Shown here: piece by piece, positions 472 to 5,690 of the stretch | Layout of the letters: every line of letters starts with the position of its first letter | Numbering within the stretch: the first letter of the stretch is position 1 | Virus record (IMG/VR): IMGVR_UViG_2639763151_000002 | Strand: one strand, 5' to 3' | DNA from: a virus | Lineage: Duplodnaviria; Heunggongvirae; Uroviricota; Caudoviricetes | Length of the DNA stretch: 17,168 nucleotides | Notes under the pieces: model-generated | What the model was told of the DNA's origin: nothing | Databases searched by the model: none | The model's input: only the letters and a program-made list of their open reading frames with translations | Program-made: the position numbers and the translations under genes

Positions 472-488
472 TTTTGTGGAGAAAGTTG

Positions 489-851
489 ATGCGTGATATG
501 TATGAAGTATTGGACCGCTGGGGAGCATGGGCTGCAGCAGAAAATAGTGGTGTGGACTGGCAGCCGATAGCGGCTGGTTTCAAGGGACTTTTACCACACG
601 GTAAAAAGTCACGTCTCCAGTGTGATGATGATGAAGGCATCATGATAGACGGTTGTGTGGCTCGGTTGCGAAAGTATAAACCAGAGGAATATGAGCTAAT
701 CATAGCTCACTTTGTTATTGGTATCTCATTACGCACTATTGCCAAGAAGAGAAGATGTTCAGATGGCACAATTAGGAAGGAATTGCAGACTGCCATGGGG
801 TTTATCAGCGGTGTAATAATAACTATAAACCCCATTATGGTAGTTAATTAA
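489..851 (+). CDS. Q: late-gene antitermination protein Q (short, phage 21/82-type; not lambda Q family)
   Basis: Protein MRDMYEVLDRWGAWAA...IAAGFKGLL...CSDG...RKELQ matches the short Q family of E. coli prophages as recalled. ATG at 489 is preceded by GGAG at 478-481; the listed ORF start at 474 is a TTG. It lies directly upstream of the lysis cassette. Confidence 0.75.
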   Translation: MRDMYEVLDRWGAWAAAENSGVDWQPIAAGFKGLLPHGKKSRLQCDDDEGIMIDGCVARLRKYKPEEYELIIAHFVIGISLRTIAKKRRCSDGTIRKELQTAMGFISGVIITINPIMVVN

Positions 852-1419
852 TGTGAATCCTATCACCAAGATAGTATAGTCCAAAAAATGTTGAAACAAG
901 CATTTGCCATGTAAGGAATAAAAAGATAATGATATAGCACCAGTTTGCTATATCATTATTCAGTATGTTTATTAGTGGTGTGATAAAAGCGTTGAAAATC
1001 ACTATGCATATGCTGAGGGCAGTTAAAAATGAAAATAACATGCACAGAAATAATCTTCTGGTAAGTTTCTCTTGAGTGTCAACAATTCTACCATTTTCTT
1101 TTGTTCGTGTAATTTTAATAAAAGGAGTGCCATTAGTTCCTATCAGAGGGTAGTCAATTTGTTCTCTGTTGAAAGTGGCTATTGCTGCAAGAGCTGCTAT
1201 ATAAAAACCTGGCAGATTTGATACAAATCCAGATATAGACTTAATAAAGCCGCCATCTTTTAGTAGGTCTGATGTAGGTATTTTAAATAAATAAAAGTAA
1301 AAAAAAGAAATCACAGCAAGCCCGGCAGGTGCATAAAAATCGTATGCGCACTTACCACTAATTCCCTTAATGAAAAGGTAACCAAACGGTCTAAATAAAT
1401 GTGAAAATATACTAATCAT
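844..1419 (-). CDS. hypothetical integral membrane protein, 191 aa, about four predicted TM helices; second gene of the AT-rich cassette
   Basis: Uninterrupted ORF with GAGG 7 nt upstream of the ATG at 1419. Hydrophobic stretches AGLAVISFFYFYLF, GFYIAALAAIATF, LFLCMLFSFLTALSICIVIF and WCYIIIFLFLTWQMLVSTFFGLYYL. No lambda counterpart. Confidence 0.7.
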   Translation of the reverse strand: MISIFSHLFRPFGYLFIKGISGKCAYDFYAPAGLAVISFFYFYLFKIPTSDLLKDGGFIKSISGFVSNLPGFYIAALAAIATFNREQIDYPLIGTNGTPFIKITRTKENGRIVDTQEKLTRRLFLCMLFSFLTALSICIVIFNAFITPLINILNNDIANWCYIIIFLFLTWQMLVSTFFGLYYLGDRIHIN

Positions 1420-1426
1420 ATTAGCC

Positions 1427-2455
1427 TCACATGACCTCGATAATCTTATTCACAAACTCCATGTTAATACTATCATAAGAATCCTTTAAGCGCGAAGAAA
1501 AACCATTTATTACACTCTTTTTGATAAATGTTTTTTCCAGCCCATCCAGCCTTACATTTGAAGTTTGAAGGTCAACTTGTCTTGTGAATCCTGTCTCTGG
1601 CTCTTTGAATTTTATTTTTATTAAGTCATAACCTCCATTTTTATCTTCTTTAAAGAAGTTTGAGACAGATTTTATCCATCCAAGGACATTGTTGGGGCCA
1701 TGGTTTGGTACTAAGCGTAAAGTACTTTCTTTAGGAATAATAGCCGCGTTAACATCTGGCGCATTAATAGTTCTGTATTCATTCTTTACCAAAACGACAT
1801 CAGAAAGTCCTTCTTTATTTATTTTATTGAACAAATCTTCATCTAACTTTCCAGATATATCAAAGACTGGCTTGTATAATACTTTTATTTTTTTCTTTGT
1901 TAAACTTGACACTTCATTTGTTAAAGTGTTACATGAAAAGATATCTTCATTATCTTTGGCTACGTTAAAGAGAACTTTATTCAGGAAACCATTTATTTTT
2001 GCTGTGGAAACTCCTGGTATTGGCATAAAACTCATGTCATACGTTCGCATATTTCCGTCTAGAGAAATAATCATATGAGAAGAAACTTCGTAACCTTCAC
2101 CTTCCTCATGTTTTGGTGATATTTCGGTGCGAACATCTGTATTAATGTTTTTTAATACAGTAGTGCTTCCATTTTTATCTACAGCATTAATTAAAAGACC
2201 AAGATGGCTGGGTTTTTTATCGGCTCTGTTTGATAAGAATATTACATCTTGTAAAGTTAAAACTAAGTCTCCTTTTTCATAACTGTGCATCATTGCTTTA
2301 CAACGTACTATTTTAGAAGCAAGTTCACGCATTGTTGGTACCGGGCAAACACAGTTCGATCTGATGCTATCATCAATTTTCTGTGTACGGTATTGTGTAT
2401 CGATCGTAATAGTATGATGAGTTATTACTCTACTAAATGCGTCCAGTGTAGCCAT
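1427..2455 (-). CDS. hypothetical soluble protein, 342 aa, Lys/Asn-rich; first gene of the AT-rich cassette
   Basis: Long ORF in about 30% GC DNA whose stop lies 7 nt upstream of the membrane gene start, giving an operon arrangement. No Walker A, HNH or other motif was recognised by eye. Confidence 0.7.
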   Translation of the reverse strand: MATLDAFSRVITHHTITIDTQYRTQKIDDSIRSNCVCPVPTMRELASKIVRCKAMMHSYEKGDLVLTLQDVIFLSNRADKKPSHLGLLINAVDKNGSTTVLKNINTDVRTEISPKHEEGEGYEVSSHMIISLDGNMRTYDMSFMPIPGVSTAKINGFLNKVLFNVAKDNEDIFSCNTLTNEVSSLTKKKIKVLYKPVFDISGKLDEDLFNKINKEGLSDVVLVKNEYRTINAPDVNAAIIPKESTLRLVPNHGPNNVLGWIKSVSNFFKEDKNGGYDLIKIKFKEPETGFTRQVDLQTSNVRLDGLEKTFIKKSVINGFSSRLKDSYDSINMEFVNKIIEVM

Positions 2456-2568
2456 TTCAAAATATCCGCTTCTTTGCTGTTTTTATATGGAGAAAGTTTA
2501 CATAACCACTAACGCGTACGCAAAAACTATTGTATCGTGTTAAGAGTGGTTACTTCGCCACACAGCTT

Positions 2569-2598
2569 AAACCCGCCGTCGAGCGGGTTTTGTCGTTT
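2569..2598 (+). terminator. candidate intrinsic terminator (tR'-like) upstream of the holin gene
   Basis: Stem AAACCCGC / GCGGGTTT at 2569-2576 and 2583-2590 with loop CGTCGA, followed by TTTTGTCGTTTC. The position between the Q region and the holin is where the Q-antiterminated tR' is expected. Confidence 0.4.
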
Positions 2599-2742
2599 CT
2601 GGGGCTGGGGATTCGTTGGTCCTGGCCTATTCCGCAGTTATCCATTGGCTCGGCTTCTTTGACGTTTCCGCTTCTGATTTGCGGTACATGATGTTCCCTC
2701 AATTTGCACCTGCTGTATCAGCGAGGTGAGAGATAACTACAA

Positions 2743-3069
2743 ATGCCTCATAACCCAAATACCTGGCTGGAGTTGGTCCAGAGCTGGTGGCGTGGAGACA
2801 CACCACTGGGCGCAGTGATTATGTCGATTGTTATGGCTGGATTGCGCATTGCCTATTTTGGCGGTGGTGGTGGGTGGAAGCGAAAAACGCTCGAGATTTT
2901 GCTCTGTGGTGCTCTGACGCTGACTTTTGCATCCGCTCTTGAGTATGTCGGATGGCCTAAATCTCTTTCTGTTGCCATTGGTGGCGGTGTTGGGCTGATT
3001 GGTGTCGATGCAATTCGTGGGGTTGCAATGCGAGTAATCGGTAACAAATTTGGTAGCTCGAAGGAGTAA
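2743..3069 (+). CDS. holin (class I-like, three predicted TM helices); not lambda S family
   Basis: 108-aa protein with three hydrophobic segments and a charged C-terminus, ending 3 nt before the endolysin R start. SD GAGGTGAGAG precedes the ATG. Confidence 0.7.
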   Translation: MPHNPNTWLELVQSWWRGDTPLGAVIMSIVMAGLRIAYFGGGGGWKRKTLEILLCGALTLTFASALEYVGWPKSLSVAIGGGVGLIGVDAIRGVAMRVIGNKFGSSKE

Positions 3070-3072
3070 TTT

Positions 3073-3549
3073 ATGCAGGCACTAAATTCCCAGCGTAAAG
3101 CTTTCCTCGATATGGTGGCATGGTCAGAAGGAACGGATAACGGACGGCAGAAAACCAGAAATCATGGTTATGACGTCATTGTAGGCGGAGAGCTATTTAC
3201 TGATTACTCCGATCATCCTCGCAAACTTGTCACACTAAACCCAAAACTAAAATCAACAGCCGCCGGACGTTATCAGCTTCTTTCACGCTGGTGGGATGCT
3301 TATCGTAAGCAGCTTGCTCTGAAAGACTTCTCTCCGAAAAGCCAGGACGCTGTGGCATTGCAGCAGATTAAGGAGCGTGGCGCTTTACCGATGATTGATC
3401 GCGGTGATATTCGTCAGGCAATTGACCGTTGCAGCAATATCTGGGCTTCACTGCCGGGCGCTGGTTATGGTCAGTTCGAGCATAAGGCTGACAGCCTGAT
3501 TGCAAAATTCAAAGAAGCAGGCGGAACGGTCAGAGAGATTGAGGTATGA
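3073..3549 (+). CDS. R: endolysin R (lytic transglycosylase)
   Basis: 158 aa, near-identical to lambda R as recalled ([56 protein letters not shown]...). Confidence 0.95.
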
Positions 3550-4007
3550 GCAGAGTAACCGCGATTATCTCCGCTCTGGTTATCTGCATCATCGTCTGCT
3601 TGTCATGGGCTGTTAATCATTACCGCGATAACGCCATTACCTACAAAGCCCAGCGCGACAAAAATGCCAGAGAACTGAAGCTGGCGAACTCGACAATTAC
3701 TGACATGCAGGTGCGCCAGCGTGATGTTGCTGCGCTCGATGCAAAATACACGAAGGAGTTAGCTGATGCGAAAGCTGAAAATGATGCTCTGCGTGATGAT
3801 GTTGCCGCTGGTCGTCGTCGGTTGCACATCAAAGCAGTCTGTCAGTCAGTGCGTGAAGCCACCACCGCCTCCGGCATGGATAATGCAGCCTCCCCCCGAC
3901 TGGCAGACACCGCTGAACGGGATTATTTCACCCTCAGAGAGAGGCTGATCACTATGCAAAAACAACTGGAAGGAACCCAGAAGTATATTAATGAGCAGTG
4001 CAGATAG
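3546..4007 (+). CDS. Rz: Rz inner-membrane spanin (i-spanin)
   Basis: 153 aa, near-identical to lambda Rz as recalled; the ATGA start/stop overlaps the end of R. Confidence 0.95.
3766..3948 (+). CDS. Rz1: Rz1 outer-membrane lipoprotein spanin (o-spanin), embedded in Rz in the +1 frame
   Basis: 60 aa with lipobox LVVVGC and proline-rich stretch [15 protein letters not shown], matching lambda Rz1 as recalled. Confidence 0.9.
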
Positions 4008-4038
4008 AGCTGCCCATATCGATGGGCAACTCATGCAA

Positions 4039-4332
4039 TTATTGTGAGCAATACACACGCGCTTCCAGTGGAGTATAAATGCCTAAAGTAATAAAACCGA
4101 GAAATCCATTTACGAATGTTTGCTGGGTTTCTGTTTTAACAACATTTTCTGCGCCGCCACAAATTTTGGCTGCATCGACAGTTTTCTTCTGCCCAATTCC
4201 AGAGACGAAGAAATGGTGGGTGATGGTTTCCTTTGGTGTTACTGCTGCCGGTTTGTTTTGAACAGTAAACGTCTGTTGGGCACATCCTGTAATAAGCAGG
4301 GCCAGCGCAGTAGCGAGTAGCATTTTTTTCAT
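4039..4332 (-). CDS. bor: Bor lipoprotein (serum-resistance moron)
   Basis: 97 aa MKKMLLATALALLITGCAQQTFTVQNKPAAV..., essentially identical to lambda Bor as recalled. Confidence 0.95.
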   Translation of the reverse strand: MKKMLLATALALLITGCAQQTFTVQNKPAAVTPKETITHHFFVSGIGQKKTVDAAKICGGAENVVKTETQQTFVNGFLGFITLGIYTPLEARVYCSQ

Positions 4333-4623
4333 GGTGTTATTCCCGATGCTTTTTAAAGTTCGCAGAATCGTATGTGTAGAAAATTAAACAAACCCTAAAC
4401 AATGAGTTGAAATCTCATATTGTTAATATTTATTAATGTATGTCAGATGCGAAGGATCGTCACTGTATTCCCGGATTAACTATGTCCGCAGCCCTGACAG
4501 GGAAACTCCTCTGCGGGAGTGTCCGGGAATAATTAATAACGATGCACACAGGGTTTAGCGCTTACACGTATTGCATTATGCCAACGCCCCGGTGCTGACA
4601 CGGAAGAAACCGGACGTTATGAT

Positions 4624-5157
4624 TTAGCGTGGAAAGATTTGTGTAGTGTTCTGAATGCTCTCAGTAAATAGTAATGAATTATCAAAGGCATAGTAATATC
4701 TTTTATGTTCGTGGATATTTGTAACCCATCGGAAAACTCCTGCTTTAGCAAGATTTTCCCTGTATTGCTGAAATGTGATTTCTCTTGATTTCAACCTATC
4801 ATAGGACGTTTCTATAAGATGCGTATTTCTTGAGAATTTAACATTTACAACCTTTTTAAGTCCTTTTATTAACACAGTGTTATCGTTTTCTAACACAATG
4901 TGAATATTATCTGTGGCTAGATAGTAAATATAATGTGAGACATTGTGACGTTTTAGTTCAGAATAAAACAATTCACAGTTTAAATCTTTTCGCACTTGAT
5001 CGAATATTTCTTTAAAAATGGCAACCTGAGCCATTGGTAAAACCTTCCATGTGATACGAGGGCGCGTAGTTTGCATTATCGTTTTTATCGTTTCAATCTG
5101 GTCTGACCTCTTTGTGTTTTGTTGATGATTTATGTCAAATATTAGGAATGTTTTCAA
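4624..5157 (-). CDS. hypothetical protein, homolog of lambda right-end ORF lambdap78 (annotated elsewhere as putative envelope protein)
   Basis: 177-aa ORF in AT-rich DNA at the same distance from cosN as lambdap78, as recalled. Confidence 0.65.
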
Positions 5158-5319
5158 TTAATAGTATTGGTTGCGTAACAAAGTGCGGTCCTGCTGGCAT
5201 TCTGGAGGGAAATACAACCGACAGATGTATGTAAGGCCAACGTGCTCAAATCTTCATACAGAAAGATTTGAAGTAATATTTTAACCTCTAGATGAAGAGC
5301 AAGCGCATGGAGCGACAAA

Positions 5320-5526
5320 ATGAATAAAGAACAATCTGCTGATGATCCCTCCGTGGATCTGATTCGTGTAAAAAATATGCTTAATAGCACCATTTCTATG
5401 AGTTACCCTGATGTTGTAATTGCATGTATAGAACATAAGGTGTCTCTGGAAGCATTCAGGGCAATTGAGGCAGCGTTGGTGAAGCACGATAATAATATGA
5501 AGGATTATTCCCTGGTGGTTGACTGA
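5320..5526 (+). CDS. small hypothetical protein, homolog of lambda lambdap79 / YbcW-like
   Basis: 68-aa [36 protein letters not shown]... at the lambdap79 position relative to cosN. Confidence 0.6.
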
Positions 5527-5690
5527 TCACCATAACTGCTAATCATTCAAACTACTTAACCTGTGACAGAGCCAACACGCAGTCTGTCACTGTCAGGAAA
5601 GTGGTAAAACTGCAACTCAATTACTGCAATGCCCTCGTAATTAAGTGAATTTACAATATCGTCCTGTTCGGAGGGAAGAACGCGGGATGT

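What the first reader, a model, noticed from the sequence alone, without database searches (positions are those of the whole stretch)
844..1419. Small four-helix membrane protein as the putative effector of the cassette
The 191-aa product has four long hydrophobic segments rich in aromatic residues, separated by short loops, with a basic loop (KITRTKENGR) between helices 2 and 3. It is too small for a transporter and has no signal-peptide or lipobox pattern. This fits the size class of pore or ion-channel effectors and superinfection-exclusion proteins.
Basis: inference. Interest (0 to 1): 0.6.

Follow-up and report, generated by a model that had tools for sequence, protein, structure and literature searches.

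The report
Rex-type membrane effector in prophage
The small four-helix membrane protein is real. It is the downstream half of a two-gene, Rex-like anti-phage cassette carried by an E. coli lambda-like prophage. A Pseudomonas relative of this cassette was shown in 2026 to stop cell growth by damaging the membrane, so this is a new member of a known kind, not a new kind.

Summary
The ORF exists at 844-1419, on the minus strand. It encodes 191 aa with four long helices and a cytoplasmic beta-hairpin loop; the AlphaFold2 model has pLDDT 86. A 342-aa gene (1427-2455, minus strand) lies 7 nt upstream, inside a low-GC insert between the Q antiterminator gene and the late promoter/terminator region of an E. 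coli lambdoid prophage.

- **Family.** The two proteins match PADLOC's unpublished candidate system PDC-M53 (B: E 1.7e-54; A: E 1.3e-31). They match no Pfam or NCBIfam family.
- **Pairing.** The pair is adjacent in 76 of 82 sources examined, across Proteobacteria. It sits in prophages and defence islands with no conserved third gene.
- **Link to experiment.** The family includes Pseudomonas putida PP_5643/PP_5644, published as RexABpp (Sci Rep 2026). There both genes are needed for defence, and the 4-TM protein is the growth-arresting, membrane-permeabilising effector. The window protein is 38% identical to RexBpp over its full length (E 2e-29).
- **Limit of the Rex label.** No sequence link to lambda RexB was found.

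Novelty: new member of a known kind. Interest is modest.

The parts
844..1419 (-). Gene B: 191-aa, four-helix inner-membrane protein of the PDC-M53B / RexBpp family; the putative membrane effector.
   Evidence: ORF and translation. PADLOC PDC-M53B, E 1.7e-54, full length. PHROG 8257. AF2 model, pLDDT 86. BLASTP to P. putida RexBpp (P0272): 38% identity, E 2e-29.
1427..2455 (-). Gene A: 342-aa soluble protein of the PDC-M53A / RexApp family with a RexA/RdgC-like fold; the putative sensor or trigger.
1420..1431 (-). A-B junction: stop codon of A (1429-1427), GAGG Shine-Dalgarno-like motif (1428-1425) overlapping that stop codon, 7-nt spacer, then the ATG of B (1419-1417). The layout implies translational coupling.
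   Evidence: Read directly from the sequence. Across the family the A-B spacing is mostly -4 to +16 nt.
2456..2560 (-). Upstream region that should hold the cassette's own promoter. The weak candidate is -35 TTGCGT (2523-2518), 17-nt spacer, -10 TAAACT (2500-2495). Inferred, low confidence.
   Evidence: Sequence read. The consensus scan found no site at or above 9 of 12 matches here, so this is inference only.
474..851 (+). Flank: phage antiterminator Q gene. Its 3' end overlaps the 3' end of gene B by 8 bp, in convergent orientation.
   Evidence: Pfam Phage_antitermQ, E 2.8e-45. ORF coordinates.
2495..2600 (+). Flank: late promoter / tR'-like region conserved among lambdoid phages, with an intrinsic terminator at 2569-2590 plus a T-run. 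The cassette therefore lies between Q and the late transcription start, outside the late transcript.
   Evidence: Terminator-like site. Many lambdoid and Stx phages match window positions of about 2495-2591 (query 1896-1992). Assigning this stretch as pR'/tR' is inference from lambda biology.
2743..3069 (+). Flank: lambda-family holin S, followed by the endolysin gene and Rz.
   Evidence: Pfam Phage_holin_3_1, E 3.2e-25; Rz, E 2.6e-53. RefSeq annotation of identical E. coli prophages.

Best explanation
Genes A (1427-2455) and B (844-1419) form a self-contained, horizontally acquired, two-gene anti-phage exclusion (abortive-infection type) cassette of the RexAB type. It is carried as a moron by an E. 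coli lambdoid prophage.

Proposed mechanism, by analogy with RexABpp:
1. B sits in the inner membrane as a homo-oligomer. Its N-terminus, its basic beta-hairpin loop and its conserved C-terminal GLYYLG tail face the cytoplasm. It is silent in healthy lysogens.
2. A is a cytoplasmic dimeric protein with a RexA/RdgC-like fold that probably binds DNA. It senses a feature of an infecting phage.
3. A then activates B, directly or indirectly.
4. Activated B compromises the membrane barrier. Growth stops and the infecting phage cannot complete its cycle.

Shown here: the anatomy, family membership, the obligate A-B pairing, the mobile and defence-island context, and the RexA/RdgC-like fold of A.
Shown by others for a homologue: both genes are required for defence, B is the toxic membrane effector, and A binds DNA.
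Inferred: that the E. coli pair behaves the same way, the nature of the trigger, any A-B contact, and any pore or ion selectivity.
For: - **Family match.** PADLOC PDC-M53B and PDC-M53A match at full length. All 77 B-family members and 70 of 71 A-family members sampled match the same models and no named defence family.
- **Obligate pairing.** A lies directly upstream of B on the same strand in 76 of 82 sources. Four of the six exceptions (L020, L069, L077, L078) are cut by a contig end; three of them have no room upstream for A, and L069 is a truncated B on a 1.9-kb contig. Spacing is mostly -4 to +16 nt.
- **Co-inheritance.** A and B identities co-vary (r = 0.83). B is more conserved than A in 98.9% of 2485 locus pairs; median identity is 34% for B against 21% for A. 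This is the pattern expected of a conserved effector and a fast-evolving sensor.
- **Mobile, patchy, defence-associated.**
  - The insert has 30-36% GC against about 50% in the flanks.
  - It is present in only 15 of 5426 complete E. coli genomes.
  - It occupies the same Q-to-holin slot in Shigella phage SfII and in Enterobacter and Limnobaculum prophages.
  - It lies before the holin genes in Salmonella phage F1055, and next to the integrase in a Vibrio Vinavirales prophage.
  - Other neighbours are heterogeneous: CI-like S24 repressors, MADS genes, PARIS AriA, restriction-modification genes, SoFic and Vsr.
- **Experimental homologue.**
  - P. putida RexBpp was identified here as P0272 (KT2440 protein AMM02979.1). 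P0272 carries W25, F35, L55, S145, G153 and Y181 exactly as numbered in the paper. Its termini match the paper's primers except for one base in the forward primer as held in the stored supplement text.
  - It aligns end to end with window B (38% identity, E 2e-29).
  - The paper's suppressor mutation Y181H falls on the second Tyr of GLYYLG, which is Y183 in the window protein. That column is Y in 60 and F in 17 of 78 sequences.
  - In that system both genes are needed for defence. RexApp overexpression arrests growth only if rexBpp is intact. Cells take up SYTOX Green and propidium iodide and leak beta-galactosidase. RexApp binds DNA non-specifically. Both proteins self-associate.
Against: - No experiment exists on the E. 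coli, Shigella or Salmonella versions.
- Window B is only 38% identical to RexBpp, and window A about 20% identical to RexApp.
- No sequence or profile link to lambda RexA or RexB was found. hhalign probability was below 1%. No A or B family member hits Pfam RexA or RexB, although lambda's own proteins hit them at E 1e-97 and 8.5e-92.
- In RexABpp a direct A-B interaction was not detected by two-hybrid assay. Only a subpopulation of cells showed membrane damage.
- The TM3 glutamate found in about 44% of family members (34 of 78) is Leu135 in the window protein.
- No convincing promoter was found for the cassette.
Confidence: 0.7

Rival explanations
1. Reversed roles, as in mycobacteriophage Butters gp30/gp31 or in Kiwa. 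The soluble DNA-binding protein A would be the antiviral effector, blocking phage replication or recombination or being toxic when free. The membrane protein B would be only its anchor, sequestering partner or sensor of membrane perturbation at phage entry.
For: - A has a RexA/RdgC-like fold, a family of DNA-binding proteins (PMC11077077).
- In Butters the RexA-like protein is the effector and the membrane protein is dispensable (discussion of PMC12894663).
- In Kiwa a 4-TM protein with cytoplasmic beta structure in the TM2-TM3 loop is the sensor, and the soluble DNA-binding partner is the effector.
- Lambda RexA has RexB-independent activities.
Against: - In the closest characterised homologue (RexABpp) the toxicity of A overexpression requires B. 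Seven of the spontaneous suppressors map to rexBpp (the others lost the tac-rexApp cassette or prophage P1), and membrane permeabilisation is observed.
- B, not A, is the strongly conserved partner.
- There is no PADLOC KwaA/KwaB or Pfam DUF4868 match. The gene order is opposite to Kiwa.
Confidence: 0.15
2. The cassette serves the prophage's own life cycle rather than defence. Examples would be modulating the lysis-lysogeny switch or late gene expression (as lambda RexA stabilises the lytic state), or tuning lysis timing with the adjacent holin.
For: - The cassette sits exactly between Q and the late promoter/holin region. The same slot is used in SfII and in Enterobacter and Limnobaculum prophages.
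- Lambda RexA influences the CI-Cro switch independently of RexB.
Against: - The same pair occurs in many non-phage contexts and in quite different positions: next to CI-like repressors, next to integrases, and inside defence islands with restriction-modification, MADS and PARIS genes.
- It is transcribed opposite to the phage late genes.
- It is absent from most otherwise similar lambdoid prophages (15 of 5426 genomes).
- It has no Pfam holin match.
Confidence: 0.07
3. B acts alone as a classical superinfection-exclusion protein that blocks DNA injection at the inner membrane (as P22 SieA or T4 Imm do). A would be unrelated or merely regulatory.
For: B is a small inner-membrane protein encoded by a prophage.
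Against: - A-B pairing is nearly universal, with translational coupling.
- Both genes are required in RexABpp.
- The few loci with B but no recognisable A are contig-truncated or look decayed.
Confidence: 0.04
4. B is a housekeeping or accidental membrane protein with no role in phage biology.
For: There is no functional annotation in Pfam or NCBIfam.
Against: The gene lies in a low-GC insert within a prophage, has a patchy distribution and is carried on mobile elements. It matches a PADLOC defence-candidate model and is homologous to a validated defence gene.
Confidence: 0.02

Closest known systems
RexABpp of Pseudomonas putida prophage P1 (PP_5643/PP_5644; Rosendahl et al., Sci Rep 2026, PMC12894663)
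   Same: - Same protein families for both genes. B is 38% identical end to end, E 2e-29. A is related at profile level, with hhalign probability 91% over 314 columns to an orthologue.
- Same sizes: about 330-342 aa and about 188-191 aa.
- Same order (A then B), with tight coupling.
- Same 4-TM protein with both termini cytoplasmic.
- Both are prophage-borne.
- The residue hit by the suppressor mutation Y181H is conserved (Y183 here).
   Different: - Host and element differ: an E. coli lambdoid prophage here.
- Position differs: between Q and the late promoter and opposite to phage transcription, instead of downstream of the CI-like repressor.
- A is very divergent, at about 20% identity.
- The TM3 Glu (E124 in RexBpp) is Leu135 here.
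- The E. coli version has never been tested.
Lambda RexA/RexB exclusion system (Pfam PF15969/PF15968)
   Same: - Two-gene layout, with a soluble protein upstream and a 4-TM inner-membrane protein downstream.
- Prophage-expressed.
- The accepted model has the membrane protein as effector, activated by the soluble sensor.
   Different: - No detectable sequence or profile similarity of B to RexB or of A to RexA.
- B is 191 aa with a 37-residue cytoplasmic beta-hairpin loop, against 144 aa for RexB.
- A is 342 aa, against 279 aa for RexA.
- It is not next to cI or PRM in this window.
- Whether B and RexB are homologous or merely analogous is open.
PADLOC candidate system PDC-M53 (unpublished phage defence candidate)
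   Same: Both proteins match its models at full length, and the genes are adjacent. Every family member sampled matches.
   Different: PDC-M53 is only a computational label with no described function. The library search found no paper that links it to RexABpp.
Kiwa (KwaA/KwaB)
   Same: - A 4-TM membrane protein of about 190-200 aa with beta structure in the cytoplasmic TM2-TM3 loop, plus a soluble DNA-binding partner of about 315 aa.
- Widespread in defence islands.
   Different: - No KwaA or KwaB model match, and no DUF4868.
- KwaA has a six-stranded beta-barrel built with its C-terminus; B has only a two-stranded hairpin and a six-residue tail.
- KwaB has a Rossmann-like domain plus DUF4868, not a RexA/RdgC-like fold.
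- The gene order is reversed.
- In Kiwa the membrane protein is the sensor, not the effector.

Membership tests
PADLOC PDC-M53 | B component matches the PDC-M53B model | tested here: met
   PDLC04699, E 1.7e-54, residues 4-190 of 191 against profile positions 2-186 of 188.
PADLOC PDC-M53 | A component matches a PDC-M53A model and lies adjacent on the same strand | tested here: met
   PDLC04696, E 1.3e-31, residues 8-340. The genes are 7 nt apart on the minus strand.
RexABpp-type system (P. putida PP_5643/PP_5644) | Membrane component homologous to RexBpp over its full length | tested here: met
   BLASTP of window B against P0272 (KT2440 AMM02979.1): 38% identity, E 2e-29, residues 4-189 against 2-187. 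P0272 was identified as RexBpp by six of seven residue numbers and by the primer-derived termini; the forward primer as held in the stored supplement text is one base off.
RexABpp-type system (P. putida PP_5643/PP_5644) | Soluble component homologous to RexApp | tested here: met
   hhalign of the window A subfamily profile (A2) against the A protein of L083, which starts (M)HRTATFV as RexApp does: probability 91.3%, E 9.5e-7, 314 columns. An iterated HMM unites all A proteins. Pairwise BLASTP alone is weak, E 8e-4 over 69 aa. The KT2440 RexApp sequence itself was not available.
RexABpp-type system (P. putida PP_5643/PP_5644) | Four transmembrane helices with both termini cytoplasmic | tested here: met
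   AF2 helices at 23-44, 58-82, 121-153 and 156-187. Hydropathy. Positive-inside count. DeepTMHMM itself was not available.
RexABpp-type system (P. putida PP_5643/PP_5644) | Both genes required for protection against phages | not testable with these tools
   Needs plaque assays with deletion or complementation strains.
RexABpp-type system (P. putida PP_5643/PP_5644) | Overexpression of A causes B-dependent growth arrest and membrane permeabilisation | not testable with these tools
   Needs induction experiments with dye uptake or membrane-potential read-outs.
Lambda RexAB (Pfam RexA PF15969 / RexB PF15968) | Soluble component matches Pfam RexA | tested here: not met
   None of 71 A-family members hits RexA at E <= 0.01, whereas lambda RexA hits at 1e-97. 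hhalign of the A family against lambda RexA: probability 0.08%.
Lambda RexAB (Pfam RexA PF15969 / RexB PF15968) | Soluble component has the RexA/RdgC two-domain fold | tested here: inconclusive
Lambda RexAB (Pfam RexA PF15969 / RexB PF15968) | Membrane component matches Pfam RexB or is homologous to lambda RexB | tested here: not met
   None of 77 B-family members hits RexB at E <= 0.1, whereas lambda RexB hits at 8.5e-92. hhalign of the B family against lambda RexB: probability 0.6%. No solved RexB structure was available for a fold test.
Lambda RexAB (Pfam RexA PF15969 / RexB PF15968) | Located next to the cI repressor and co-transcribed from PRM | tested here: not met
   In the window the pair lies between Q and the late region. 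Some relatives do lie downstream of CI-like S24 repressors.
Kiwa | KwaA-type membrane protein and KwaB with DUF4868 | tested here: not met
   No PADLOC Kwa model and no Pfam DUF4868 hit for the window proteins or for any of 71 A or 77 B relatives. No significant Foldseek PDB match.
Phage holins | Match to a holin family, and location within the late lysis operon on the same strand | tested here: not met
   No holin Pfam hit. The gene is on the opposite strand, upstream of the late terminator region. The prophage has its own S holin at 2743-3069.

The most novel reading that the evidence does not exclude
The B family may be a distinct class of small defence effector. It has four TM helices plus a cytoplasmic basic beta-hairpin and a GLYYLG tail, and forms about 745 clusters at 50% identity. 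It may be unrelated to lambda RexB and have paired with RexA/RdgC-fold sensors independently, so that 'Rex-type' immunity arose by convergence.

The enterobacterial copies are parked between Q and the late promoter, antisense to phage transcription. They could be wired to the prophage's own lytic switch, for example silenced by read-through from pR during induction so that the prophage does not abort its own burst.
Probability: 0.15. Interest if true: 0.6.

Novelty: new member of a known kind. Interest (0 to 1): 0.35.

Why it matters
- It gives a name and a testable mechanism to two 'hypothetical protein' genes found in E. coli, Shigella (phage SfII), Salmonella and many other proteobacterial prophages and defence islands.
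- It links PADLOC's orphan candidate PDC-M53 to the experimentally characterised RexABpp system and, through the fold of A, to lambda Rex.
- An E. coli member would let the 70-year-old Rex question be studied with coliphage genetics, on a membrane partner much better conserved than lambda RexB. That question is what the sensor detects and how a 4-TM protein shuts the cell down.
- The gain is incremental. The kind of system and its general logic are already published.

Tried and rejected
- **Pfam, NCBIfam and PHROGs on A and B.** No informative family, only PHROGs of unknown function.
- **PDB searches.** Foldseek of both AF2 models against the PDB gave nothing at E <= 0.001. Profile searches of PDB sequences gave nothing.
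- **Kiwa hypothesis.** Considered because of the 4-TM protein plus a soluble partner of about 320 aa. Rejected: no Kwa or DUF4868 matches, different folds, opposite gene order.
- **Direct homology to lambda RexA/RexB by hhalign.** No signal. A RexA or RexB family profile was not built, so this test used single lambda sequences only.
- **Holin or lysis role.** Rejected on strand, position and absence of holin family matches.
- **Conserved third gene.** None found. Neighbours are heterogeneous.
- **Promoter scan.** No site above threshold upstream of A. Only a weak hand-picked candidate is reported.
- **Megablast against the phage collection.** Found the flanks but not the cassette. tblastn was needed to find it.
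- **Fetching the KT2440 locus through P0272.** A 90%-cluster relative (P0159, locus L083) was used instead.
Full report
**1. The observation**

The window carries a 191-codon ORF at 844-1419 on the minus strand. Hydropathy and an AlphaFold2 model built on 56 homologues (pLDDT 86.3, pTM 0.82) agree on four long helices: 23-44, 58-82, 121-153 and 156-187. They are preceded by two short amphipathic helices at residues 2-16.

Aromatic residues make up 18% of the protein. There is no lipobox and no signal-peptide-like N-terminus.

The stretch between helices 2 and 3 is about 37 residues long, not a short loop. The basic segment KITRTKENGR lies in a predicted beta-hairpin (strands 100-106 and 112-118).

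Positive-charge counts, for the window protein and averaged over 78 relatives, place the N-terminus, the hairpin loop (with the invariant R122 at the start of helix 3) and the C-terminus in the cytoplasm.

The ORF is a real, conserved gene:
- 609 clusters at 90% identity and 745 clusters at 50% identity match it.
- Almost all are 183-205 aa.
- They share near-invariant motifs: LPGFYIAALAAIATF in helix 2, LTRRxFL..F.FLTA.S entering helix 3, Q172 in helix 4, and GLYYLG-R-H at the C-terminus.

**2. Context in the window**

The window is an E. coli lambdoid prophage. It is 100% identical over the test region to several RefSeq chromosomes, where both genes are annotated as 'hypothetical protein'.

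| Coordinates | Strand | Feature |
|---|---|---|
| 61-471 | + | DUF968 |
| 474-851 | + | Antiterminator Q |
| 844-1419 | - | Gene B |
| 1427-2455 | - | Gene A |
| about 2495-2600 | + | Late-promoter/terminator region conserved among lambdoid phages |
| 2743-3069 | + | Holin S |
| 3073-3549 | + | Endolysin-position ORF (no Pfam match) |
| 3546-4007 | + | Rz |
| 4039-4332 | - | Bor |
| from 6273 | + | Nu1/terminase and head genes |

Sources for this layout are.

The A-B block has 30-36% GC against about 50% in its flanks. It is therefore an acquired moron. It lies between Q and the late transcription start, and it is transcribed against the phage's early-right and late transcription.

B's ATG lies 7 nt after A's stop codon, and a GAGG motif overlaps that stop codon. 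No convincing sigma-70 promoter was found upstream of A.

**3. The pair is a unit**

A scan of one genome per species returned 78 loci encoding a B relative. They come from Gamma-, Beta- and Alphaproteobacteria, plus a few Desulfovibrionaceae, Nitrospira and Victivallales.

- With an iterated profile, an A relative lies immediately upstream on the same strand in 76 of 82 sources.
- Of the six exceptions, four (L020, L069, L077, L078) are cut by a contig end; three of them have no room upstream for A, and L069 is a truncated B on a 1.9-kb contig. The other two (L015, L059) have B without a recognisable A, as does L024.
- A-B spacing is mostly -4 to +16 nt.
- The two proteins co-diverge (r = 0.83). 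B is more conserved than A in 98.9% of 2485 pairs, with median identity 34% against 21%. This is the usual signature of a conserved effector coupled to a fast-evolving sensor.
- No third gene is conserved. Neighbours include Q and holin genes, CI-like S24 repressors, ArdC, MADS genes, PARIS AriA, restriction-modification genes, SoFic and Vsr.
- The pair also occurs in Shigella phage SfII (same Q-to-S slot, 64% identity), in Salmonella phage F1055 (just before the holins) and in a Vibrio Vinavirales prophage beside its integrase.
- In E. coli it is rare, present in 15 of 5426 complete genomes.

**4. What family it is**

Pfam and NCBIfam give nothing, and PHROGs gives only families of unknown function.

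PADLOC matches both proteins at full length to PDC-M53B (E 1.7e-54) and PDC-M53A (E 1.3e-31). All 77 B relatives and 70 of the 71 A relatives sampled match the same models and no named system. PDC-M53 is an unpublished computational candidate.

**5. Link to an experimentally characterised system**

A 2026 paper (PMC12894663) describes 'RexABpp', encoded by PP_5643/PP_5644 of P. putida prophage P1.

- The membrane protein has four TM helices.
- Both genes are required for defence.
- RexApp overexpression causes RexBpp-dependent growth arrest, SYTOX Green and propidium iodide uptake, and beta-galactosidase leakage.
- Suppressors map to rexBpp: W25stop, F35L, L55P, an insertion at T103, S145N, G153stop and Y181H.
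- Both proteins self-associate.

The paper's primers give the RexBpp C-terminus ...GLYYLGYKLQE* and an N-terminus that, as held in the stored supplement text, reads MLIGQLANP; P0272 has MLIGQLAKP, a one-base difference. They also give the RexApp N-terminus MHRTATFV.

These features match a Pseudomonas clade of the B and A families. The 90%-identity cluster of P0159 contains the KT2440 protein AMM02979.1 (P0272, 188 aa). P0272 has W25, F35, L55, S145, G153 and Y181 exactly as numbered in the paper; T is at position 102 rather than 103. I take P0272 to be RexBpp.

- Window B aligns to P0272 end to end: 38% identity, E 2e-29.
- Y181 of RexBpp corresponds to Y183 of the window protein, in the GLYYLG motif.
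- A contig carrying P0159 shows a CI-like repressor, then a 71-aa gene, then A (330 aa, starting (M)HRTATFV), then B.
- That A protein matches the window's A subfamily profile at hhalign probability 91%, E 9.5e-7, over 314 columns.

The window cassette is therefore a divergent member of the same two-protein family as RexABpp. The literature search found no paper that links RexABpp to PDC-M53.

**6. Relation to lambda Rex proper**

Architecture, gene order and the fold of A are alike. However:
- No A or B relative hits Pfam RexA or RexB, whereas lambda's own proteins hit them at 1e-97 and 8.5e-92.
- hhalign of the family profiles against lambda RexA and RexB gives probabilities below 1%.
- B is a third longer than RexB and has the hairpin loop.

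Whether B and RexB share ancestry or are analogues remains open. 'Works like Rex' is supported. 'Is a member of the lambda RexB family' is not.

**7. Mechanism proposed**

B oligomerises in the inner membrane. RexBpp self-interacts and needs a free C-terminus to do so. This fits the conserved C-terminal motif and the Y181H suppressor.

A is a cytoplasmic dimer with a RexA/RdgC-like fold. It senses an infection cue, possibly a phage DNA-protein intermediate, and activates B. Loss of membrane integrity or energisation then arrests growth and aborts the infection.

The steps after 'A and B are a conserved, mobile, defence-associated pair homologous to RexABpp' are inferred from the homologue. The main rival is reversed roles, as in Butters gp30/gp31 or Kiwa, where the membrane protein is anchor or sensor. 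The RexABpp genetics and the higher conservation of B argue against that rival.

**8. Verdict**

- Novelty: a new, untested enterobacterial member of a recently described kind.
- Interest is modest, at about 0.35. The value lies in connecting PDC-M53, RexABpp and lambda Rex, and in offering an E. coli model for study.

Noticed in passing
window 4624-5393 (minus strand): A second low-GC insert (33-38% GC) lies between bor and the DUF3950/Nu1 genes. It holds a 177-aa DUF1398 protein (4624-5157) preceded by an overlapping 79-aa ORF with no Pfam match (5154-5393). It looks like another moron of unknown function.
   Followed up: partly
window 926-959 (inside gene B, codons about 154-165): A perfect 14-nt inverted repeat with a 6-nt loop (ATAATGATATAGCA / TGCTATATCATTAT) is followed on the coding strand by a T-run. 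It would be a terminator-like hairpin about 25 codons before B's stop codon. A 14-nt perfect repeat with the same core (AATGATATAG / CTATATCATT) but different outer pairs sits at the equivalent place in the Enterobacter soli homologue (L005 8459-8496). Limnobaculum has none, and SfII has a different one. It could be inherited sequence or a structure that limits B expression.
   Followed up: partly
window 844-851: The Q antiterminator ORF (plus strand) and gene B (minus strand) overlap by 8 bp at their 3' ends. Early-right transcription through Q would therefore run antisense into the cassette.
   Followed up: no
window 2495-2600: The cassette is inserted upstream of the conserved late promoter/tR'-like terminator region (hairpin 2569-2590). 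It is not downstream of it, where stx-type morons sit, so it is not part of the Q-dependent late transcript.
   Followed up: partly
protein P0320 (metagenome, JGI/ENA, single 145-kb contig): A 513-aa protein is an A-B fusion: an A-like region at residues 1-325 followed directly by a full B domain at 326-511. If genuine, it would support physical coupling and a cytoplasmic B N-terminus. It is a singleton, so a frameshift or assembly artefact cannot be excluded.
   Followed up: partly
window gene B residue 135; family alignment column: The mid-membrane position in helix 3 is Glu in 34 of 78 relatives (motif FLTAES, including RexBpp E124). It is Leu in the window protein and its enterobacterial clade. 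A buried acidic residue is therefore not essential to the family.
   Followed up: partly
L004 (JBJFHC010000248.1, 2198 bp): A contig binned into an 'Erysipelotrichaceae bacterium' MAG encodes A and B proteins that score identically to the E. coli pair (B is 100% identical at protein level). This is most likely a binning contaminant from E. coli.
   Followed up: no
L002 (Vibrio phage 10N.286.54.C7_PE001, PQ189345.1) 4001-5546: The same A-B pair sits next to the integrase of a small (14.6 kb) Vinavirales (tectivirus-like) Vibrio prophage. The cassette therefore travels on very different kinds of temperate elements.
   Followed up: no
L015, L024, L059: Three loci have an intact-looking B gene but no recognisable A gene upstream, even at relaxed thresholds. 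L015 has two shorter ORFs of 140 and 211 aa in that position. These could be decay, partner replacement or orphan B genes.
   Followed up: partly
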